A stretch of 46,345 bases of DNA, taken from the sequence record LC918680.1; one strand, written 5' to 3'. The notes below the pieces were generated by a model, which did no database searches, had not been told where the DNA came from, and worked only from the letters and a program-made list of their open reading frames with translations. This document shows, in pieces, positions 8,757-45,214 of the stretch. Both the position numbers and the translations under genes were made by a program. Numbering within the stretch: the first letter of the stretch is position 1; each line of letters opens with the position of its first letter. Source of the DNA: a phage.

Positions 8757-8778
8757 CCCTCTTCGGAGGGTTTTTTAT
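8757..8778 (+). terminator. intrinsic terminator after major tail gene
   Basis: CCCTC-TTCG-GAGGG + TTTTTT. Confidence 0.75.
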
Positions 8779-8781
8779 TGA

Positions 8782-8796
8782 TAGCACTTTTTGTTA
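8782..8796 (+). promoter_or_regulatory. boundary motif copy 2
   Basis: TAGCACTTTTTGTTA after major-tail terminator. Confidence 0.5.
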
Positions 8797-8857
8797 AAGA
8801 CCAAATCGCGGATTGCTGTATAGTTCATTCATCGAAACGAAATGAGATATTAGTGAA

Positions 8858-15333: not shown

Positions 15334-18300
15334 ATGGCACAAATGGTCAAAACAAATGCGGAGCTATGTGATATGGCGGAAGAAATTAAGATTTATGGAA
15401 GTAAGGGCGGACAGCCAAAGCAGCACCAACCTGTAGAGCAGCCTGATAACCTGATATCCGTAAACAAGGTTAAGGTTTTGCTAGCTGTTTCTGATGGTGA
15501 GGTTGATAGCTCATTCTCCCTAAAGGACCTTTACCTTGCTGACGTTCCTGTACAGAACCAGAATGGCACATACAACTACGAGGGTGTAACGGCAGAGTTT
15601 CGCCCTGGCACACAGAGTCAGGATTACATTGCCGGGCTAGAGGGTGCTAGCTCGGAAGTGCAAGTGAACAGGGAGATTAAAAACTCAACTCCTTACATCA
15701 TTGCTGTTAATAACACCCAGCTATCAGCGATTAGGGTTAAGCTGTTTTGGCCTCGTCTGATTAATCAGGAAAGTAACGGAGATCTTAACGGTACCACTTG
15801 CGAGTATGCGATTGACCTGTCCGTTGATGGCGCTACATACACTGAGTACACGCGCGGAGTAGTTAATGGCAAGACAACTAGCGGGTACGACAGAAGTATC
15901 AGGGTTAACCTTCCTGCTGAGTTCTCGAGTGCGTTGGTGAGGGTTCGTAAGATCACGGCAGATTCAGAAAGTTCGACGCTGGTTAACGACATGCAAATTA
16001 CGACCTATCAGGAAGTAATTGATGCTAAATTCCGCTACCCACTTACAGCTCTGGTTTACGTTGAGTTCAGTTCTGACCTCTTCCCTAACGGAATCCCGAC
16101 GATTTCAATCAAGAAGAAGTGGAAGTTGATTCGCGTTCCAACTAACTACAACCCAGAGACAAGGACTTACAGCGGAACCTGGAACGGCACCTTTAAGATG
16201 GCGTATTCCAATAACCCGGCGTGGGTTCTTTACGACTTGGTGACGAATCAGCGTTACGGACTTGACCAGCGAGAGCTTGGCATTACTATTGATAAGTGGG
16301 GTCTGTATGAGGCGGCGCAATTCTGTGACCAGATGGTTCCAGATGGTAAGGGTGGAGTTGAGCCGCGCTACCTGTGTGATGTTGTCATTCAGCAGAAAGT
16401 TGAAGCATATCAGGTAATCCGTGATATTTGCTCTATCTTCCGTGGGCTGACATTCTATGACGGCGAGCAGATAGGGATTGTTGTCGATAAGCCGCGTCAA
16501 CCATCGTACGTATTCACCAATGACAACGTTGTTGATGGATTGTTCAACCGTACATTTGGTAGCGATAAGTCACTTTACACGGTTGCCAACGTTCAGTTTG
16601 ATGACGTTGAAAACTCATACCAACAGGATGTTGAGCCAGTATTCGAGTTAGAGGCAACAAGGCGTTTTGGTTACAACCCGGTCGACCTTACAGCTATTGG
16701 ATGTACTCGCAGGAGTGAGGCAAACCGCCGCGGGCGCTGGTTATTAAAGACGAACATTCGCAGCGAGACTATTAGTTTCACTACTGGTCTGGAAGGTATG
16801 ATTCCAATGATTGGTGAGGTTATTGCAGTTAATGACCAGGCATGGTCTAGCAACTACACCCTTAACCTTTCTGGTCGTATCGAGTCAGTAAGTGGGTTGC
16901 AAGTTTTTGTGCCATTTAAGATTGATGCTACTGCTGGCGACAGGATTCTAATAAACAAGCCTGATGGAATGCCAGAGTACAGGACCATTGCATCTGTATC
17001 TGAAGATGGTATGACGCTTCAACTTAATACAGCGTTTAGCTTTACTCCTCAGCCTGACACAGTATTTGCGATTGATAAGGAAAATCTTGCTCTTCAGCAA
17101 TATGTTGTGACCGGTATTCAAAAAGCAGACAGCGATGGAGATGATGCGTTTGGTTACACGATTACCGCAGTTGAGTACGACCCGAACAAATACGACGAGA
17201 TTGATTACGGCGTAAACATTCAGGACAGGCCAACTTCAATCGTGGAGCCAGATACATTACTGGCACCCGAGAATGTTCAGGTTAGCAGTTACAGTAAGGT
17301 TGTTCAGGGTTTATCAGTTGAGACAATGGTAATCACGTGGGACAAGGTTCAGTACGCGAAAACCTACACGGTCCAGTGGCGCAAGGAGAACGGAAACTGG
17401 ATTAACGTGCCGCGCACAGCAAGCACAGAGGTTGATATTGAAGGTATCTATGCCGGAATTTACCAGGTTCGCGTAAGGGCCGTTTCTGATACTGAAAACG
17501 TATCCGCATGGTCTGACATTGTTTCAGTAAGCCTCACAGGCAAGATTGGGACCCCTTCTTCACCTACAGTAATCACCGCTTCAGATGATGAAATATTCGG
17601 CATTAGGGTTAAGTGGGGATTTCCTGAAAACTCAGCCGATACGTCATACACTGAATTGCAGCAAGTAGCCGACAATGGTGATGGTACTTATACACCAGAG
17701 AATGCTAGCCTTCTGACTCTGGTGCCTTACCCGAGTTACGAGTACTGGCATACTACACTTCCTGCTGGAAAGGTCATCTGGTACAGGGCGCGACTGATTG
17801 ACAAGATTGGTAACGTCTCACCATGGACTGATTTTGTAAGGGGTATGGCAAGCGATGATGTGTCGTCAATCATTGGTGATATTAAGGTTGATATAGAAAA
17901 CTCAGATGGGTTCAAGTATCTCCAGCAGAATGCCATTGAGTCAAACGGAGCTATTCAGGCGCAAGCGGAATCAATAATTGAGAACGCCCTGGCTAATGAT
18001 GGTGACGTGCGTAGAATGACGAAGGAAAACGGCAAGAGGAAGGCCGAATTTGTTCAGGCTGTGAATCTTATCGCCGATGAAGAAAGGGCTCGCGTAGAGG
18101 CTCTGACGCAGCTTAAGGCGCAGATTGATGATGAGATTGTAGCTTCATTGACAAGGATTGATACGGCGCTAGCGGAAGAGACGCAAGCAAGGACCACTGC
18201 GGACACTGCTTTATCTGCAAGGCTAGGTGATAATGAGGCTGCGTTAAATGAGAAGCTGGACACTTACGTTACTGCCGATTCAATTGGTGCTCAGTACGGG

Positions 18301-18729
18301 ATTAAACTTGGCCTCAAATACAATGGCGTTGAGTACAGTTCTGGCATGAGTATGGAGCTAACTGGTTCTGATGGCAATGTTCGTAGTCAGGTCATCTTTG
18401 ATGCTAACAGGTTCGCAATCAGTAACGGTGTTAGTTCAGGTTCCGGTCAGTGGTCATTGCCTTTCGTAGTTGAGAATAACCAGGTATTCATCCAAAGCGC
18501 GGTAATTCAGGATGGTTCAATTACTAACGCGAAGATTGGTAACTCGATTCAGTCAAACAACTACGTTGCTAACTCGCAGGGCTGGAGTTTAAACAAAGCT
18601 GGGACATTCGAGAATAACGGCTCAACTGCTGGCGAAGGTAAGATGAAGCAGACGAACCAAACAATTTCGGTTGCGGATGCTAATGGAAGGCTTCGTGTTC
18701 AGATTGGTCGTTTAACTGGCACATACTAA
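15334..18729 (+). CDS. tail tip/central fibre host-specificity protein (lambda J-like)
   Basis: 1131-aa ORF at end of tail module, larger than any other non-tape-measure ORF. Confidence 0.85.
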   Translation: MAQMVKTNAELCDMAEEIKIYGSKGGQPKQHQPVEQPDNLISVNKVKVLLAVSDGEVDSSFSLKDLYLADVPVQNQNGTYNYEGVTAEFRPGTQSQDYIAGLEGASSEVQVNREIKNSTPYIIAVNNTQLSAIRVKLFWPRLINQESNGDLNGTTCEYAIDLSVDGATYTEYTRGVVNGKTTSGYDRSIRVNLPAEFSSALVRVRKITADSESSTLVNDMQITTYQEVIDAKFRYPLTALVYVEFSSDLFPNGIPTISIKKKWKLIRVPTNYNPETRTYSGTWNGTFKMAYSNNPAWVLYDLVTNQRYGLDQRELGITIDKWGLYEAAQFCDQMVPDGKGGVEPRYLCDVVIQQKVEAYQVIRDICSIFRGLTFYDGEQIGIVVDKPRQPSYVFTNDNVVDGLFNRTFGSDKSLYTVANVQFDDVENSYQQDVEPVFELEATRRFGYNPVDLTAIGCTRRSEANRRGRWLLKTNIRSETISFTTGLEGMIPMIGEVIAVNDQAWSSNYTLNLSGRIESVSGLQVFVPFKIDATAGDRILINKPDGMPEYRTIASVSEDGMTLQLNTAFSFTPQPDTVFAIDKENLALQQYVVTGIQKADSDGDDAFGYTITAVEYDPNKYDEIDYGVNIQDRPTSIVEPDTLLAPENVQVSSYSKVVQGLSVETMVITWDKVQYAKTYTVQWRKENGNWINVPRTASTEVDIEGIYAGIYQVRVRAVSDTENVSAWSDIVSVSLTGKIGTPSSPTVITASDDEIFGIRVKWGFPENSADTSYTELQQVADNGDGTYTPENASLLTLVPYPSYEYWHTTLPAGKVIWYRARLIDKIGNVSPWTDFVRGMASDDVSSIIGDIKVDIENSDGFKYLQQNAIESNGAIQAQAESIIENALANDGDVRRMTKENGKRKAEFVQAVNLIADEERARVEALTQLKAQIDDEIVASLTRIDTALAEETQARTTADTALSARLGDNEAALNEKLDTYVTADSIGAQYGIKLGLKYNGVEYSSGMSMELTGSDGNVRSQVIFDANRFAISNGVSSGSGQWSLPFVVENNQVFIQSAVIQDGSITNAKIGNSIQSNNYVANSQGWSLNKAGTFENNGSTAGEGKMKQTNQTISVADANGRLRVQIGRLTGTY

Positions 18730-18739
18730 CTGATAAAAT

Positions 18740-18760
18740 AGGCAAATGGATTTGCCTTTA
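18740..18760 (+). terminator. hairpin/weak terminator after J-like gene
   Basis: AGGCAAA-TGGA-TTTGCCT then TTTATAAAT. Confidence 0.4.
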
Positions 18761-18776
18761 TAAATAGGAGTAAATT

Positions 18777-19091
18777 ATGGCTGAGTATGGAATTGCAACA
18801 TATGACGCGAACGGTAATTACAATAACTACGGGATTAGACCTGTAACAGTTGTTGGTAATATCTCGCTTGCTAATGGACAGACATCTGGTAGCTACAGCT
18901 TTACGATACCAGCAGGTACTAAGGTTAATTTCGTCGTCGCGACTCAATCTGACTCGCTAATTAGCTACACCAATAAGCGTTTAATATCCGCATCTGGAAA
19001 TACGATAAATATATCTGCAACAACAGGATATGGTAACGGCGTTACATCCACTGGTGCTTCTAATGTTATTGTCTTTCTGGAGAATGCGTAA
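18777..19091 (+). CDS. hypothetical Ser/Thr/Asn/Gly-rich protein (putative fibre-associated)
   Basis: 104-aa ORF immediately after J-like gene; composition resembles the next ORF. Confidence 0.45.
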   Translation: MAEYGIATYDANGNYNNYGIRPVTVVGNISLANGQTSGSYSFTIPAGTKVNFVVATQSDSLISYTNKRLISASGNTINISATTGYGNGVTSTGASNVIVFLENA

Positions 19092-19759
19092 TGAGTTATG
19101 GAGCGTACATAAATGTAAATGGTAACCCGTTCATAACCCAGAACTCAACGCCGATGGCGCTTTATAGAAAAGTTACAATTAACTCAACGAAATCAAATAA
19201 TTTCAACTCAGCTAGCGCCTCAGTAAACATACCAGGAGGAACGTCACTGATAGGTTTTGGGAGGACCAGTGGGTATGCAGCAATAAGTAGCTCAATATCT
19301 GGGAGTACAGTTTCGGTAAGCGCTAGCAACTACAAAGTTACAAATTTCACTCTTGAAGCTTATTTCTTTGCTATATTCCCACAAGAACTACCAGCGTGGG
19401 GTATGGCAATATGGGATGATTCAGGTAAGTTAATACTAACAAATGAAACAAAAGTAATGACTGACTTGATAACGATTGGTACGCCAGGAGCTTCTAGTGG
19501 AGGTGTGTTTATAGATACAACAATACAAGGTAGGAAGCTTGCTGTTTGCCCTGGGGTACTTGGTGCGGTTTTGCTTGCAGGCCCTCCTCAGCAGGGGCAG
19601 CCCACAATTCAGCCAGTCACGGCATACACTGCATGTCATGACCAAGATGGAGGAACAAGGTTTAGGTCAGCAACTTCAAGTAGCGCATCCGGCGGTAGCC
19701 TTGGAGCTTCAAACCTTGGAACAATAATGACCGCCATTGACGTTTCAATATATGACTAA
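19091..19759 (+). CDS. hypothetical Ser/Thr/Gly-rich protein (putative fibre-associated)
   Basis: 222-aa ORF start-overlapping upstream stop (TAATG); followed by strong terminator. Confidence 0.45.
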   Translation: MSYGAYINVNGNPFITQNSTPMALYRKVTINSTKSNNFNSASASVNIPGGTSLIGFGRTSGYAAISSSISGSTVSVSASNYKVTNFTLEAYFFAIFPQELPAWGMAIWDDSGKLILTNETKVMTDLITIGTPGASSGGVFIDTTIQGRKLAVCPGVLGAVLLAGPPQQGQPTIQPVTAYTACHDQDGGTRFRSATSSSASGGSLGASNLGTIMTAIDVSIYD

Positions 19760-19782
19760 GCCCCTTTCGGGGCTTTTTTATT
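19759..19782 (+). terminator. intrinsic terminator at end of + strand structural block
   Basis: AGCCCC-TTTC-GGGGCT + TTTTTT. Confidence 0.8.
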
Positions 19783-20002
19783 AACCACCACAGTCGTGAT
19801 CTTTAAAGTTAGACTCCGAAACGTAGTGGAAAGAGAATGGGTATCCAGCACGTAACAGTAGTTCGTCACCTCTTTGCTGAGTACCAAAAACATAAACCGA
19901 GTACTCTGACCCAGCAGATTCATAAATTGCGGTACAAGTGCGCTCAGGCATTGAAGAGCATCCAGTCAGTAATAACGCTGCGCAGATAATAAACTTTTTC
20001 AT
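19781..20002 (-). CDS. small lipoprotein, Cor-like superinfection-exclusion candidate
   Basis: MKKFIICAALLLTGC signal peptide with lipobox; 73 aa; convergent with tail module. Confidence 0.55.
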   Translation of the reverse strand: MKKFIICAALLLTGCSSMPERTCTAIYESAGSEYSVYVFGTQQRGDELLLRAGYPFSFHYVSESNFKDHDCGG

Positions 20003-20168
20003 AAAATCTCCTTAGAAGCCGTTAAAGTTTGAGGCAAGCAGCAGAACCCACACTAAGAAACCAGTTACAGAAGCACCCGCAAAAGTTGAAATTAAGTTAG
20101 TAGTTAATCTCTTGTTTAGGTTGTTTCGTTTCGATGTGGTAATCATAAACCATCATTAAGCTTTGTCT

Positions 20169-20858
20169 TTAGCTATTAGTGCTATTTGCAATAAACACAG
20201 CCTTTGCAAAACCGCGAGGAGTTAGGCTGCGGATTACCTTTGTCTTCTTGCTCTTTCCACCTAACTTCTTGTATTGGTCAGAGAATCCATCGTTAACGCC
20301 CACCGGAATCGCCTTAGGCCATTTAAACCCATTACCAAACCAAATGCATGTCTTCTTAGGATATGCGTCTCTTGGCTTTATTAGGTCGCTAAAAAACGGG
20401 TGTAAATCATCTTCCGGCAAATAGCCTCCGTATTCATATGGGTGGAAAGTCTTATTAGGCTTTCTCCAGAGTGATGACAGTACGCTGATTGGATTCTCAA
20501 TCATGTATGGGACTTCGTACTTATTAGCCAAGTTAAAAGCAACTTTACATGTTTCCGCAGCTTCAATCTGGAAGTTATGGTTAACCAGTCGCTTTCGCTC
20601 AAAGTGCCTTGACCCGCTCACGGCTAAATCCGTACACGGCGGGAACGCTAAAATGATATCAGGCTTCACATCAAAGTCGAAGTCGGCATCTATCCAGACA
20701 TTAACGTAGGTGATGTTCTCATGTCCAAATTTTGCATTTAAATCCACGTAACTACCGTGGTCAGACTCATCAAAGTTGAAACAGTAGCACTCGTGACCAG
20801 CCTCAGCCCAATCTTTCACAGCCAGCCCTGAACCATCAAATAAAGACCAAACAACCAT
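20169..20858 (-). CDS. putative DNA methyltransferase with C5-cytosine MTase-like motifs
   Basis: Motif I-like FDGSGL, Pro-Cys FPPCTDLAVSG, ENV-like IENP; start placed at internal ATG 20858 preceded by conserved ACGAGAGAGG leader (track start 20900 has no RBS); unusually short (229 aa). Confidence 0.5.
   Translation of the reverse strand: MVVWSLFDGSGLAVKDWAEAGHECYCFNFDESDHGSYVDLNAKFGHENITYVNVWIDADFDFDVKPDIILAFPPCTDLAVSGSRHFERKRLVNHNFQIEAAETCKVAFNLANKYEVPYMIENPISVLSSLWRKPNKTFHPYEYGGYLPEDDLHPFFSDLIKPRDAYPKKTCIWFGNGFKWPKAIPVGVNDGFSDQYKKLGGKSKKTKVIRSLTPRGFAKAVFIANSTNS
20170..20184 (-). promoter_or_regulatory. boundary motif copy 3
   Basis: - strand TAGCACTAATAGCTA overlapping MTase stop. Confidence 0.5.
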
Positions 20859-20900
20859 TTTGAAATCCTCTCTCGTTTTTTTGTGTGACCAACTATACAT

Positions 20901-21399
20901 GGTTTTGCGGATTAGTTTTAGCTATTCGTGCTGTTGGTTACGCGTAACCGATGTAACTCTATGTATACCATATGCATCAGCGGGAAATCGTATACGCCTA
21001 ATTACGCTTTGATACGCCATAGTTACATTAAAATATATATATATATCAACCTTTTACTCTTATTATTATTATTATATATATTACTGTGTATATCATGTAA
21101 CTACTGTCATGGAGCGTTCCGGTTATAATTTTTATATCATGTGATTTTATACAGTATTTCGCTGCACCTATACCTATGCACCATCCGCTAAAATTGGTAT
21201 ACACGATATACGCACCATTTACATTGAGCTATAGCTGGGCTCAGGCAGTGAAAAACGTAACCAATAGAAATGTCTACACGTAGTTACGGATTTATACGCG
21301 TATACTTGATTAATTAATCGGCGATACCAATTGGACTGTGTGTCTTGCGTGCGGCATCATTAACGCATCGAAAGCAAACAGCCACAGAGAGATAGAGAA
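20901..21399. repeat. control region A: gene-free AT-rich divergent intergenic region, paralogous to region B
   Basis: Shares with region B the blocks TATATATATCAACCTTTTACT, (ATT)n-TATATATA microsatellite and AGCTATAGCTGGGCT...CGTAACCAAT; contains palindromes GGTTACGCGTAACC (20936-20949) and TATACGCGTATA (21293-21304). Confidence 0.7.
20919..20933 (-). promoter_or_regulatory. boundary motif copy 4 (degenerate)
   Basis: - strand CAGCACGAATAGCTA upstream of MTase leader. Confidence 0.4.
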
Positions 21400-21787: not shown

Positions 21788-22759
21788 ATGACATTTAAAG
21801 TTTATACGAACGACGAGCTAACAAATGAATCCTATCACGAAGAGCAAGACCATATCTCTGGCTCTTCACTGGCTGAGATTCTTGCTACCTCACCAGCTAA
21901 ATGGAAGTTTAAGCAGCGCAATAACTCTAGCGCAGCACTTAAGTTTGGCACACTAAGTCACTGCATGATGCTAGAGCGCGAGGTGTTTGACTCAACATAC
22001 ATGCGAGCTACTGACTTTGACGAAGTGGAAGGATTGATTACTAGCCAAACGGCTTTATCCGCAGCGCTTAAAAAAGTTGGAGTTTCAGGCACGTCAGGGA
22101 AGGGTTATAACGAGCTTGTAGAGATGATGTATAAGTGTGGTGAGGATTGGCCTGTTAAATGGTTAATTGAGCAGCAGGAGAGCGCTCATGCGCTAATTAG
22201 TGGCAAAGAGCTCGTTACTGCGAAAGATTACGATAAAGTAATTCAAATGCGAGAGGTTCTAACTAATATTCCGGCATATGATTCGGTCATTAATTCACCA
22301 TCAGCGCAGAAAGAACTATCAATATTTGGTGAGATTCTCGGTTGTGGTGTTAAGGTTCGTCTTGACCATGTGGATGTTGTTGATGGTATTGTCTACATTA
22401 CTGACTACAAAACCACAGCAGATGCAAGTCCTAGAGGATTTGGGAAGTCAGCTTATGACCATGGATACCTGTGCAAGATGGCACTTCAGCGAGATCTGTT
22501 TGTGAAAGCCTTTAATGAGAAACGCAAGGTTGTAGTTCGCCTTTTGGCACAGGAGAAAGCAGAGCCTTACTTACCTATGTGCTACACGCTTACGGATGAG
22601 CAGCTTCGCATTGGGCGCTTACAATATTTAGAGGCTCTGGCTGTTTACAAGCAGTGCAAGGAACTTGATGTGTGGCCTGGGTATAGCAATGGGATTACAG
22701 AGCAAGATTTGATGATTCCTGAGTGGGTAAGTAAGCAGTATCAAGAACTTCTAAAATAG
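21788..22759 (+). CDS. PD-(D/E)xK family exonuclease (recombination exonuclease)
   Basis: VRLDHVDVVDGIVYITDYKT gives D...D-x-K nuclease motif; adjacent to Erf-like and SSB genes. Confidence 0.7.
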   Translation: MTFKVYTNDELTNESYHEEQDHISGSSLAEILATSPAKWKFKQRNNSSAALKFGTLSHCMMLEREVFDSTYMRATDFDEVEGLITSQTALSAALKKVGVSGTSGKGYNELVEMMYKCGEDWPVKWLIEQQESAHALISGKELVTAKDYDKVIQMREVLTNIPAYDSVINSPSAQKELSIFGEILGCGVKVRLDHVDVVDGIVYITDYKTTADASPRGFGKSAYDHGYLCKMALQRDLFVKAFNEKRKVVVRLLAQEKAEPYLPMCYTLTDEQLRIGRLQYLEALAVYKQCKELDVWPGYSNGITEQDLMIPEWVSKQYQELLK

Positions 22760-22771
22760 CACTAATTGCTA
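22757..22771 (+). promoter_or_regulatory. boundary motif copy 5
   Basis: TAGCACTAATTGCTA; starts at exonuclease stop TAG. Confidence 0.6.
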
Positions 22772-22829
22772 AAGACAAAATTAACAGGTGGGGTATCATT
22801 ACCCCATCGAAACGAAAGAGAGATGGGGA

Positions 22830-39768: not shown

Positions 39769-39827
39769 GATCTCTTGCTCTCTTTCGTTTCGATGGAGTA
39801 AATATACGCCATCCGTGGCGGTGAGTT

Positions 39828-39992
39828 TTAGCAATTAGTGCTATTTTTTCTGGCCTTCTCAATTGCCTTCAACATAATCTCGTGAGACTCAAGCAGGTCC
39901 TCGTTAAACCAGTCCCCGCAAGGCCAACCCTTTCCGCTGTAAGCACTTATGACTTCCAGATCGAAATAGTTTATCTCAGATGGTAAAAGCAT
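39828..39992 (-). CDS. hypothetical small protein
   Basis: 54-aa ORF; C-terminus KNSTNC encoded by boundary motif; start overlaps upstream stop; below track cutoff. Confidence 0.4.
   Translation of the reverse strand: MLLPSEINYFDLEVISAYSGKGWPCGDWFNEDLLESHEIMLKAIEKARKNSTNC
39829..39843 (-). promoter_or_regulatory. boundary motif copy 12
   Basis: - strand TAGCACTAATTGCTA perfect 6-3-6. Confidence 0.6.
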
Positions 39993-40450: not shown

Positions 40451-41053
40451 ATTAGTTGGATTTATTTATTGTTGCAGATATTGCAATGATTAATCTTACT
40501 ATTGCACATATAACAATATTGCATCGAATGCAATGATGTTTTTGATTGTTGCGGGATTTGCAATGATTGATGTGAGGGTGAATGAATGGTGAATGAACTA
40601 CCATACAAGTTGATTTTGATTCTTGCTGAGCCAATTTGGATATACACGTTATCGAAGTTATGGTGTGTATATGAGGTGCGCTTCCGAAGAATCATACACG
40701 CCTACCACGCTAGATTACGCAATGGTTACATAATAATATCTATATATATCAACCTTTTACTATATTATTATTATTATTATATATATGTATGTATATGGTG
40801 TAGATTGGTCGTATGGATGGGTCGATAGTTTTTCTATGAAAACTACTAATTTTATCTATATAGATACATATGCATACCCCCGGCGAATCCGCGTAAAATA
40901 TTACACAGGGTAATTACACCAGCTATAGCTGGGCTGAGAGGTCAAAAAGCGTAACCAATGCAGATATAAACACAACATAACACTTGATAACGCGTATATT
41001 CATGATACCATGGTTTCATCTTAACGAAGAGCAACCAATCAGGAGTAACGAAT
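40451..41053. repeat. control region B: gene-free AT-rich divergent intergenic region, paralogous to region A; iteron-like TGCAATGAT repeats
   Basis: Same conserved blocks as region A at about 40741-40790 and 40920-40975; three TGCAATGAT copies plus further TTGCA half-sites at about 40470-40570; coordinates +/-2. Confidence 0.7.
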
Positions 41054-42584: not shown

Positions 42585-42724
42585 TTTACGTTCACACGTA
42601 CTATACAGGTAAGTTTAACAGCGTTAAGCACGTGCGAGTTTATGAATCCTACAATGAAGCAAAAGCTCAGATGGATGTTCTTGGTGGTGCCGTGCATCGA
42701 TGCGAAGTAGTTGAAGAATTATAA
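42581..42724 (+). CDS. hypothetical small protein
   Basis: 47-aa ORF; stop immediately precedes a boundary motif. Confidence 0.4.
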   Translation: MIYVHTYYTGKFNSVKHVRVYESYNEAKAQMDVLGGAVHRCEVVEEL

Positions 42725-42725
42725 A

Positions 42726-42740
42726 TAGCACGAATTGCTA
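42726..42740 (+). promoter_or_regulatory. boundary motif copy 16
   Basis: TAGCACGAATTGCTA directly after stop TAA. Confidence 0.6.
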
Positions 42741-42799
42741 AACATGAATTGGGATAGGTTGTTATACTTATCCCATCAAAACGAGATGAGGAATTGACG

Positions 42800-43921: not shown

Positions 43922-44143
43922 ATGAAAAGTATGGTGACACATTCGAGTGTGACGGCGACAACCTTGAGGTACTATCAACATTCAATAGAGGTGAAAAGAA
44001 TGAGCTTCACTGAATATGTTATCGCATGTGAACGACTGGTCTTTGATATGAAGACTTTTCACTGGTTCATAATTAAGGATTTAATCAAGCCTTACAAGCA
44101 AGGAGTAACACCTGAGACGTTTGTTAAGTCATTCTATAAATAG
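43922..44143 (+). CDS. hypothetical protein
   Basis: 73-aa ORF; stop TAG is the first 3 nt of a boundary motif. Confidence 0.45.
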   Translation: MKSMVTHSSVTATTLRYYQHSIEVKRMSFTEYVIACERLVFDMKTFHWFIIKDLIKPYKQGVTPETFVKSFYK

Positions 44144-44155
44144 CACGAATTGCTA
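44141..44155 (+). promoter_or_regulatory. boundary motif copy 17
   Basis: TAGCACGAATTGCTA; starts at upstream stop TAG. Confidence 0.6.
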
Positions 44156-44213
44156 AATGCATGCGTCATGGATGGCATATAATTACCATATCAACATAAC
44201 GAGAGGGTAGAAA

Positions 44214-45138: not shown

Positions 45139-45214
45139 GTTCTGCTGGCGTAACAGGATAACGCAAAGACCTCCTAAGTCTTAGTTACTGGTTCGAGTCC
45201 AGTGCGGAACACCA
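45139..45214 (+). tRNA. tRNA-Arg (anticodon CCU, reads AGG)
   Basis: Manual cloverleaf: 7-bp acceptor stem (one G-U), 4-bp D-stem with GG in loop, 5-bp anticodon stem with loop CTCCTAA, T-arm ACTGG/TTCGAGT/CCAGT, discriminator A, encoded CCA. Confidence 0.8.

What the first reader, a model, noticed from the sequence alone, without database searches (positions are those of the whole stretch)
18777..19759. Pair of compositionally similar Ser/Thr/Asn/Gly-rich ORFs after the J-like gene
The two translationally coupled ORFs (104 and 222 aa) have similar low-complexity, beta-rich composition and no recognisable motifs. They may be accessory receptor-binding or fibre-tip proteins that set host range.
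Basis: inference. Interest (0 to 1): 0.4.

Follow-up and report, generated by a model that had tools for sequence, protein, structure and literature searches.

The report
Receptor-binding gene pair of T1-like phage
The two small genes after the tail-tip gene J are real.

Summary
Both ORFs exist exactly as described: 18777-19091 (104 aa) and 19091-19759 (222 aa), joined by a TAATG overlap. They are the last genes of the tail operon, directly after a lambda-J-like gene, and are followed by a strong terminator.

They match PHROG families 557 and 425. A convergent Cor lipoprotein gene (19781-20002, minus strand) completes the three-gene cassette that the literature ties to FhuA-dependent phages such as T1, N15, phi80, HK022 and BASEL Bas03.

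The backbone is about 90% identical to E. coli phage ES. ES carries a different cassette, an LptD-type DUF6453 RBP. Homology breaks at 18586-20916, and the last 35-47 residues of J co-vary with cassette type in 18 of 18 classifiable loci.

Neither protein has a signal peptide or a membrane helix, so the database labels "outer membrane" and "membrane associated" are unsupported.

Verdict: a new, divergent allele of a known kind. Best matches are at most 60% identity in phage genomes and 82% in one metagenome contig. FhuA is the likely target but is untested.

The parts
15334..18729 (+). J-like central tail fibre / tail tip protein (1131 aa), the scaffold that would carry the cassette proteins
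   Evidence: Pfam FNIII-A_GpJ 3.6e-40, Phage_Tail_Tip 1.8e-38, Phage-tail_3 3.9e-17; phrog_31.
18586..18729 (+). Cassette-specific C-terminal tail of J (last 48 aa, ...GEGKMKQTNQTISVADANGRLRVQIGRLTGTY). Inferred docking socket for the cassette proteins.
   Evidence: Homology to phage ES (90% backbone) stops at 18585. The last 50 aa of J are 56-84% identical across cassette carriers whose J bodies are only 29-76% identical. Tail class matches cassette class in 18 of 18 classifiable loci.
18740..18757 (.). 7-bp hairpin in the 47-nt J-ORF104 spacer, followed by an AGGAG ribosome-binding site 7 nt before the ORF104 ATG. Role unknown.
   Evidence: RNA fold -8.2 kcal/mol, z -1.4, not distinguishable from shuffles.
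18777..19091 (+). ORF104: small beta-sandwich protein of family phrog_557. Inferred adaptor or first module of the receptor-binding complex. Residues 1-27 are strongly conserved, the rest is variable.
19091..19759 (+). ORF222: two-domain all-beta protein of family phrog_425. Inferred terminal receptor-binding protein. Residues 1-25 and 99-140 are conserved (assembly). Residues 26-98 and 141-222 are variable (specificity).
19758..19781 (+). Intrinsic terminator ending the tail operon immediately after ORF222
   Evidence: GC-rich 7-bp stem plus a T run. -13.8 kcal/mol, z -3.85, 0 of 200 shuffles as stable. No U-tract on the minus strand.
19781..20002 (-). Cor-type superinfection-exclusion lipoprotein (73 aa, lipobox LLTGC), convergent with ORF222
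   Evidence: phrog_1119 'Cor superinfection exclusion protein' E 1.2e-25. 78% identical to Cor of the FhuA-dependent phage JulesPiccard.
20124..20187 (-). Promoter-like element about 120 nt upstream of cor. It is one of 8 copies of a conserved sigma70-like promoter family in the window, so cor is transcribed separately from ORF104/ORF222 and on the other strand.
   Evidence: Repeat family D1/I1. Alignment shows ATAGCAC-N3-TTGCTAAA, spacer, TATnAT, then CATCGAAACGAAA. Sequence context.

Best explanation
ORF104 and ORF222 are the virion-borne receptor-recognition module of a T1-like (Drexlerviridae, Braunvirinae-like) siphovirus.

Proposed mechanism.
1. They are made late, as the last two genes of the tail operon.
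2. They dock on the cassette-specific last 35-47 residues of the trimeric J fibre through their conserved N-terminal segments.
3. ORF222 is the terminal receptor-binding protein. Its variable C-terminal beta domain engages an outer-membrane protein, most probably the TonB-dependent ferrichrome transporter FhuA, and triggers irreversible adsorption and DNA ejection.
4. ORF104 is a one-module relative of the ORF222 N-domain. It acts as an adaptor, or as the first module of the complex.
5. The convergent cor gene, driven by its own promoter, makes a lipoprotein that blocks the same receptor from the periplasmic side in infected cells.

Shown here: gene structure, family membership, module swap, J-tail co-variation, fold similarity to a solved RBP, and the absence of membrane-targeting signals.

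Inferred: virion location, which protein touches J, stoichiometry, and FhuA as the target.
For: 1. Position and expression.
- The pair lies directly after J, with translational coupling, and ends at a strong unidirectional terminator.
- In N15 and mEp390 the J stop overlaps the gp22 start, and the gp22 stop overlaps the gp23 start.

2. Cassette identity.
- phrog_557 + phrog_425 + Cor phrog_1119.
- The same layout occurs in JulesPiccard, JakobBernoulli, N15, mEp390, a Logan contig whose ORF222 homologue groups with those of Citrobacter genomes, and 5 IMG/VR loci.
- The literature links this cassette to FhuA-dependent phages T1, HK022, N15, ES18 and phi80, and to 10 of 10 BASEL carriers (PMC13164509).
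- Bas03 RB-TnSeq gives fhuA and tonB as the top hits (supplement of bioRxiv 10.64898/2026.04.02.716166).

3. Modularity.
- The window is about 90% identical to phage ES except at 18586-20916.
- There ES has a reverse-strand DUF6453 protein homologous to the Oekolampad LptD RBP (E 1.5e-66) plus a lipoprotein.

4. J-tail co-variation: 11 loci with tail '...LRVQIGxLTGx[YFW]' carry the pair, and 7 loci with tail '...NLPNGGRVVVGVW' carry DUF6453.

5. Structure.
- In that structure the C-terminal part contacts the receptor and the tail-proximal part is disordered (PMC12685063). This matches the conserved N-terminus and variable C-terminus of ORF222.

6. No signal peptide or TM helix: maximum Kyte-Doolittle 19-residue mean is 0.65 and 1.34.

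7. A distant pair in L018 (108 + 218 aa after J) lacks cor altogether. It is linked to ORF222 through phrog_4062.
Against: - The T1 cryo-EM study could not resolve J residues 821-1172 or anything attached to them (PMC11945409).
- The variable regions of ORF222 are only 32-38% identical to those of known FhuA binders. The nearest full-length relatives outside two metagenome contigs are in Citrobacter genomes, at 59%. The target could be a different FhuA variant or another TonB-dependent transporter. PMC13164509 notes a Cor plus phrog_425-like cassette in BtuB-dependent Tempevirinae.
- MSAs for the models were shallow (21 and 25 sequences).
Confidence: 0.75

Rival explanations
1. The two proteins are host-membrane proteins that work with Cor in superinfection exclusion. 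[quoted passage not shown]
For: Tight genomic association with cor in FhuA-dependent phages (PMC13164509). PHROG labels.
Against: - No signal peptide, lipobox or TM helix.
- In this window and other Drexlerviridae, cor is on the opposite strand with its own promoter-family element, while the pair ends the late tail operon.
- In lambdoid carriers the pair is translationally coupled to J.
- The pair occurs without cor in L018. Cor-like genes occur without the pair in T5-like phages (PMC13164509).
- Best structural match is a virion RBP. Composition is like tail fibres.
Confidence: 0.07
2. Only ORF222 is structural. ORF104 is a non-virion assembly chaperone, like the Tfa or gp38-type fibre assembly factors, needed to fold ORF222 or attach it to J.
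For: Small size, translational coupling to the RBP gene, and a very conserved N-terminal 27 residues (65-96%). LptD-type cassettes manage with a single protein.
Against: - Chaperone genes usually follow the fibre gene. ORF104 precedes it.
- ORF104 has the same tail-fibre-like composition and beta-sandwich architecture as the ORF222 N-domain. Strand positions are near-identical; hhalign aligns 72 columns at E 0.0019; both models hit the same lectin-type PDB folds.
- 104 + 222 aa is about the 320 aa of the single-chain RBP.
Confidence: 0.12
3. The cassette is a receptor-binding module, but the receptor is not FhuA. It could be another TonB-dependent transporter, or a FhuA orthologue of a non-E. 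coli host such as Citrobacter.
For: ORF222 variable regions are only 32-38% identical to E. coli FhuA binders. Nearest named relatives are Citrobacter freundii genome-encoded (likely prophage) proteins at 59%. All 344 phage-genome hits are below 60%. A phrog_425-like protein plus Cor is reported in BtuB-dependent Tempevirinae (PMC13164509).
Against: - Cor is 78% identical to that of FhuA/TonB-dependent JulesPiccard.
- ORF222 shows full-length homology of 40-46% over 99% or more of its length to N15 gp23, mEp390 and JulesPiccard. This meets the preprint's family criterion (over 30% identity, over 99% coverage) for its FhuA class.
- The backbone is that of E. coli phages.
Confidence: 0.25

Closest known systems
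FhuA-type cassette downstream of gpJ: JulesPiccard (Bas03) bas03_0029/0030 + Cor; N15 gp22/gp23/gp24(Cor); equivalents in T1, phi80, HK022, ES18, mEp390
   Same: Same three genes and order after J. Same PHROG families (557, 425, 1119). Same class of J C-terminal tail. Same sizes (100-104, 222-225 and 73-79 aa). In Drexlerviridae, the same convergent orientation of cor.
   Different: Sequence is divergent. ORF222 is 43-46% and ORF104 50-55% identical to these, and the variable segments only 32-38%. The swapped block in the window also carries a DNA methyltransferase gene that JulesPiccard and ES lack.
Oekolampad (Bas18) RBP / Rtp44 family, Pfam DUF6453, solved on LptDE (PDB 9RPT; PMC12685063)
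   Different: A single 310-320 aa protein on the reverse strand, against two proteins (104 + 222 aa) on the J strand. No significant sequence homology. Different receptor (LptD), a different lipoprotein family (PF24052) and a different J tail.
Phage T5 pb5 / Llp (FhuA RBP and superinfection-exclusion lipoprotein)
   Same: Works alike. A dedicated RBP is attached non-covalently to the tip of a central fibre and binds FhuA. A small lipoprotein (Llp, Cor-like fold per PMC13164509) blocks FhuA from the periplasm (PMC9586334).
   Different: pb5 is a 640-aa protein encoded elsewhere in the genome. No sequence match was found in the PDB sequence search, which should include pb5. T5 adsorption is TonB-independent, whereas T1 and Bas03 need TonB.
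Lambda J C-terminal domain (LamB binding); TolC- and LamB-type J extensions in Drexlerviridae
   Same: The same tail-tip scaffold determines the terminal receptor.
   Different: There the receptor-binding domain is fused to J and no downstream cassette exists (PMC8594841). Here J ends in a short cassette-specific tail and recognition is delegated to separate proteins.

Membership tests
FhuA-type receptor cassette downstream of gpJ (phrog_557 + phrog_425 + Cor) | Located immediately downstream of a lambda-J-like tail tip gene | tested here: met
   J at 15334-18729 with Pfam GpJ and Phage_Tail_Tip domains. ORF104 starts 47 nt later.
FhuA-type receptor cassette downstream of gpJ (phrog_557 + phrog_425 + Cor) | Protein of about 100 aa belonging to phrog_557 | tested here: met
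   E 7.4e-23, residues 3-102 on profile positions 2-99 of 100.
FhuA-type receptor cassette downstream of gpJ (phrog_557 + phrog_425 + Cor) | Protein of about 222 aa belonging to phrog_425, more than 30% identical over more than 99% of its length to members from FhuA-dependent phages (criterion of bioRxiv 10.64898/2026.04.02.716166) | tested here: met
   phrog_425 E 1.3e-49 over the full length. 46% to JulesPiccard and 43% to N15 gp23. tblastn coverage 99%. Caveat: the preprint text does not say which of the two cassette proteins it calls the RBP.
FhuA-type receptor cassette downstream of gpJ (phrog_557 + phrog_425 + Cor) | Adjacent Cor-type lipoprotein gene | tested here: met
   19781-20002 (-), phrog_1119 E 1.2e-25, lipobox LLTGC.
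FhuA-type receptor cassette downstream of gpJ (phrog_557 + phrog_425 + Cor) | J ends in the class-specific tail ...DANGxLRVQIGxLTGx[YFW] | tested here: met
   The window J ends ...ADANGRLRVQIGRLTGTY. The same class is present in all 11 cassette carriers examined and absent from the 7 DUF6453 carriers.
FhuA-type receptor cassette downstream of gpJ (phrog_557 + phrog_425 + Cor) | Infection depends on FhuA (and TonB) | not testable with these tools
   Known only for relatives: Bas03 and Bas07; T1, N15 and phi80 (PMC13164509).
DUF6453 / Oekolampad-Rtp44 LptD receptor-binding proteins | Match to Pfam PF20051 (DUF6453) | tested here: not met
   No Pfam hit for ORF222 or ORF104 at E up to 1. The ES counterpart scores 1.5e-137.
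DUF6453 / Oekolampad-Rtp44 LptD receptor-binding proteins | Profile-level sequence homology | tested here: inconclusive
   hhalign A1 vs A3: E 0.005, probability 7%, 73 columns. N-terminal 13 residues: E 2.5e-4, probability 43%.
DUF6453 / Oekolampad-Rtp44 LptD receptor-binding proteins | Shared three-dimensional fold with the solved RBP (9RPT chain C) | tested here: met
Membrane / outer-membrane proteins (as labelled in PHROGs and RefSeq) | Signal peptide, lipobox, transmembrane helix or OM beta-barrel signature | tested here: not met
   Maximum 19-residue hydropathy is 0.65 (ORF104) and 1.34 (ORF222). N-termini are polar (MAEYGIATYD, MSYGAYINVNG). Models are soluble beta-sandwiches.
H-type lectin-like beta-sandwich (ORF104 and ORF222 N-domain) | Fold match to H-type lectins (SLL-2, Helix pomatia agglutinin, discoidin C-domain) | tested here: inconclusive

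The most novel reading that the evidence does not exclude
The 'unrelated' receptor-binding proteins encoded next to gpJ in small siphoviruses may be divergent versions of one modular protein.
- The protein would be built from roughly 100-aa beta-sandwich modules, each opened by a [YWF]G-h-x-h-x-[DN]-x-x-G hairpin.
- ORF104 + ORF222 (326 aa, three such motifs) would be a split form of the single-chain, roughly 320-aa DUF6453 RBP.
- The cassette-specific last 35-47 residues of J would be the matching socket.
- If so, J tail plus cassette could be moved as one unit to retarget T1-like phages, and the FhuA-type RBP could be modelled on the solved LptD-type complex.
Probability: 0.3. Interest if true: 0.6.

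Novelty: new member of a known kind. Interest (0 to 1): 0.4.

Why it matters
The locus sets which outer-membrane protein a T1-like phage uses, so it determines host range, resistance routes and superinfection exclusion.

This window gives a clean natural example of cassette exchange. It has the same backbone as phage ES but a FhuA-type module in place of the LptD-type one, with the swap boundary inside the last 48 codons of J. That boundary defines the unit an engineer would have to move.

The allele is new: at most 60% identity to any sequenced phage. It therefore widens the known sequence space of the FhuA-type family.

Two recent statements in the literature look too strong against the results here.
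- That the two genes have no structural relatives and may be membrane or exclusion factors (PMC13164509).
- That the FhuA- and LptD-type RBP families are unrelated (bioRxiv 10.64898/2026.04.02.716166). The ORF222 model matches the solved LptD RBP well above background.

Tried and rejected
- Direct BLASTP of ORF104 against ORF222 was not significant (E 0.22).
- Narrow HMMs of the roughly 25-residue N-terminal motif, built from each family and searched against all 725 six-frame segments of the window, gave no significant cross-hits. The best was E 0.79. The three-fold motif is therefore supported only by three weaker lines:
  - the broader phrog_557 profile hitting ORF222 residues 102-130 (E 5.9e-4);
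  - hhalign P values of about 0.001-0.002;
  - recurrence of the motif at the same three positions in the very distant L018 pair.
- A 3x3 hhalign matrix of ORF104, ORF222-N and ORF222-C against the three thirds of DUF6453 did not give a clear colinear diagonal. The split-gene idea stays a hypothesis.
- PDB sequence searches with single sequences and with the ORF222 family profile found nothing. Pfam found nothing.
- The exact ORF222 sequence is not on record in the public assembly index.
- The hairpin between J and ORF104 is not more stable than shuffled sequence, and I assign it no function.
- Giant LapA/Big-repeat adhesins hit by the ORF104 profile were set aside as summed weak matches of serine/threonine/glycine-rich beta repeats.
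- An apparent J-ORF104 fusion fragment (P0269) ends in out-of-frame-looking sequence and was not used as evidence.

Full report
**1. Observation**

The window has ORFs at 18777-19091 (+, 104 aa) and 19091-19759 (+, 222 aa). The TAA stop of the first overlaps the ATG of the second, reading TAATG.

Upstream lie homologues of lambda K, I and J. The J-like protein (15334-18729, 1131 aa) carries the Pfam domains FNIII-A_GpJ, Phage-tail_3 and Phage_Tail_Tip.

ORF104 has its own AGGAG ribosome-binding site 7 nt before the ATG. A GC-rich hairpin plus T-run follows ORF222 directly: -13.8 kcal/mol, z -3.85, with a U-tract on the + strand only. The pair therefore closes the tail operon.

- S+T+N+G is 47% in ORF104 and 40% in ORF222.
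- Charged residues are 8-10%.
- Non-tail proteins of the window have 21-27% STNG.
- The J C-terminus and the lateral fibre both have 38% STNG.

The proteins are not repetitive or truly low-complexity. AlphaFold2 predicts both as all-beta with good confidence: ORF222 pLDDT 85.5 and pTM 0.81; ORF104 pLDDT 84.6 and pTM 0.71.

**2. What the genes are**

Pfam has nothing for either protein. PHROGs places them as follows:
- ORF104 in phrog_557 (E 7e-23), labelled 'outer membrane protein'.
- ORF222 in phrog_425 (E 1e-49), labelled 'membrane associated protein'.

Convergent with ORF222 is a 73-aa lipoprotein at 19781-20002 on the minus strand. It has the lipobox LLTGC and belongs to the Cor superinfection-exclusion family (phrog_1119, E 1e-25).

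The order J, ~100 aa, ~222 aa, Cor recurs in these places:
- BASEL phages JulesPiccard and JakobBernoulli
- N15 (gp21-gp24) and mEp390
- a 48-kb Logan contig whose ORF222 homologue (P0003) groups with those of Citrobacter genomes
- a 3.7-kb metagenome contig that is 84% identical to window 17622-21287
- five IMG/VR loci

[quoted passage not shown] This particular three-gene cassette is found in FhuA-dependent phages T1, HK022, N15, ES18 and phi80, and in all ten BASEL carriers (PMC13164509). JulesPiccard (Bas03) gave fhuA and tonB as top RB-TnSeq hits.

**3. Modular exchange**

The window backbone is about 90% identical to Escherichia phage ES over 24 kb. Homology stops at 18585, which is 48 codons before the end of J, and resumes at 20917.

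In that interval ES has, on the reverse strand, a 320-aa DUF6453 protein (PF20051, E 1.5e-137) and a Phage_lipoprotein family protein. The DUF6453 protein is homologous to the Oekolampad RBP solved on LptDE (E 1.5e-66). The two phages therefore differ by a clean swap of an LptD-type for a FhuA-type cassette.

I examined 20 loci: the window, six reference loci and 13 IMG/VR relatives.
- All 11 with the pair + Cor have J proteins ending ...DANGxLRVQIGxLTGx[YFW].
- All 7 with DUF6453 have J proteins ending ...NNGITVNLPNGGRVVVGVW.

The last 50 residues of J are 56-84% identical among cassette carriers whose J bodies are only 29-76% identical. This supports a physical fit between the J tip and the cassette proteins. 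The 2026 preprint also flagged the GpJ tip as specificity-associated.

**4. Evidence on function**

*No membrane targeting.* Neither protein has a signal peptide, lipobox or hydrophobic helix. The 'membrane' labels have no support in the sequence.

*Separate transcription from cor.* cor is transcribed from the other strand. About 120 nt upstream of it lies one of eight copies of a conserved promoter-like element: ATAGCAC-N3-TTGCTAAA, a 17-18 nt spacer, TATnAT, then CATCGAAACGAAA. The pair belongs to the late tail transcript. In lambdoid carriers the pair is coupled to J by overlapping stop and start codons.

*The pair exists without cor.* A very diverged pair of 108 + 218 aa follows J in IMG/VR locus L018, and there is no cor. 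It is linked to ORF222 through phrog_4062.

*Matching conservation pattern.* In ORF222, residues 1-25 and 99-140 are 56-67% identical to distant family members, while residues 26-98 and 141-222 are 32-38% identical to JulesPiccard, N15 and mEp390. In ORF104, residues 1-27 are 65-96% identical and the rest is variable. The first 13 residues of the ORF222 model have low confidence, as expected for a segment that orders only on a partner.

*Wider distribution of the fold.* Foldseek against BFVD finds 17 uncharacterised 204-334-aa proteins with TM about 0.43-0.65. They come from phages of Xanthomonas, Pectobacterium, Acinetobacter, Pseudomonas and Proteus. The fold is therefore widespread and unannotated.

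**5. Are the two ORFs related to each other?**

The evidence is weak but consistent.
- BLASTP is negative.
- hhalign of the family profiles aligns ORF104 residues 22-100 with ORF222 residues 21-96: 72 columns, E 0.0019, probability 14%.
- The predicted strands fall at nearly the same positions. ORF104: 24-31, 38-41, 48-57, 67-73, 76-82, 89-103. ORF222: 23-31, 38-46, 51-59, 64-70, 73-81, 87-95.
- A short hairpin-like motif opens ORF104 (EYGIATYDANGNY), ORF222 (SYGAYINVNGNPF) and the second half of ORF222 (AWGMAIWDDSGKL).
  - phrog_557 detects the third copy at E 5.9e-4.
  - The motif recurs at the same three positions in the L018 pair.
  - It resembles the DUF6453 N-terminus, GILIDLNDGRP.
  - Narrow motif HMMs do not reach significance.

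I read ORF104 as a probable single-module paralogue of the ORF222 N-domain, with confidence about 0.5.

The lengths (104 + 222 = 326 aa against 320 aa for DUF6453) suggest a split or fused relationship. My 3x3 profile matrix did not establish colinearity.

**6. Mechanism proposed**

1. Late in infection J, ORF104 and ORF222 are made from one transcript.
2. The conserved N-terminal segments dock the cassette proteins on the cassette-specific J tail.
3. The variable C-domain of ORF222 binds the terminal receptor. By analogy with T1, phi80 and Bas03, binding would become irreversible in a TonB-dependent manner.
4. Cor, expressed separately, blocks the receptor in infected cells.

The receptor is most likely FhuA. 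In favour:
- Cor is 78% identical to the Bas03 Cor.
- ORF222 is homologous over its full length to N15 gp23, mEp390 and Bas03 proteins at 40-46% over at least 99% of the length.

Against:
- The variable regions are strongly diverged.
- Apart from two metagenome contigs at 82% and 75%, the nearest relatives are in Citrobacter freundii genomes, probably prophages, at 59%.

I put FhuA, possibly an unusual variant or different loops, at roughly 0.65-0.7.

**7. Rivals**

- A role in superinfection exclusion as membrane proteins (PMC13164509) is contradicted by the points in section 4.
- ORF104 as a non-virion chaperone cannot be excluded without proteomics.
- No paper I could read shows virion location or receptor binding for this family. 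The T1 cryo-EM map did not resolve the J C-terminus or anything attached to it. The 2026 preprint relies on AlphaFold3 docking (ipTM 0.87 for Bas03-FhuA).

**8. Novelty and score**

The locus type, its association with FhuA and its modular exchange are published, so this is a new and divergent member of a known kind.

- the exact swap boundaries relative to ES
- the strict co-variation of the J tail with cassette class in the sample
- the sequence-based rejection of the 'membrane' labels
- a clear fold match between the FhuA-type 222-aa protein and the solved LptD-type RBP

The fold match questions the 'unrelated families' and 'no structural hits' statements. Interest 0.4.

Noticed in passing
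window 8778-8842, 20124-20187(-), 22753-22817, 32172-32236, 35595-35659, 39783-39846(-), 42722-42786, 44137-44201: Eight copies of a conserved ~65-nt promoter-like element: ATAGCAC-N3-TTGCTAAA, a 17-18 nt spacer, TATnAT, then CATCGAAACGAAA. It is probably the phage's early or middle promoter family with a shared upstream box and leader. One copy sits upstream of cor.
   Followed up: partly
window 20169-20900 (-): A 243-aa DNA methyltransferase gene (phrog_757, E 5e-86) lies inside the block that differs from phage ES. It is absent from ES and JulesPiccard at this position but present in the 84%-identical metagenome contig L020. It seems to travel with this cassette variant.
   Followed up: partly
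window 21004-21099 / 40707-40802 and 21227-21279 / 40921-40973: Two direct repeat pairs, 73-74% identical and about 19.7 kb apart, including an AT-rich (TATATATAT / TTATTATTATTAT) stretch. They may be duplicated regulatory or origin-like regions.
   Followed up: no
window 45139-45211 (+): A tRNA gene (Rfam RF00005, 58.9 bits) near the right end of the window.
   Followed up: no
L018 4663-4989 and 4989-5645 (IMGVR_UViG_3300020045_001394): A very diverged 108 + 218 aa pair directly after a 1212-aa J, overlapping stop and start codons, with no cor. It is followed by a 463-aa fibre gene. It keeps the three hairpin motifs (SFGMRIWGSNG, TYGLTFTNNSD, TYGLRLWDEYSELLFDNDT). The large protein also matches positions 104-301 of the 350-position profile phrog_21124, which hints at longer, possibly fused, relatives.
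   Followed up: partly
phage records (myPSH2311, LAMP, TH38, vB_EcoP_WFI101126 and others): The DUF6453 LptD-type RBP of phage ES has 24-26% identical full-length relatives in 67-82-kb E. coli phage genomes, at least some of them podoviruses (vB-EcoP names). The RBP family therefore appears to reach beyond small siphoviruses.
   Followed up: no
proteins P0263, P0273, P0279-P0281, P0295 and others: The ORF104 family profile also scores giant repeat adhesins (LapA-domain, Big_6 and Kre9-type Ig-like repeats; up to 19 matched stretches per protein). This is probably summed weak similarity of S/T/G-rich beta-sandwich repeats rather than homology.
   Followed up: partly
protein P0269 (139 aa): A database fragment reads through from a class-A J tail (...VLRVQVGRLTG) into an ORF104-like N-terminus (MAYGIQTWDASG...) in one frame. 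It is either a real J-ORF104 fusion or, more likely, an assembly or gene-calling artefact.
   Followed up: no
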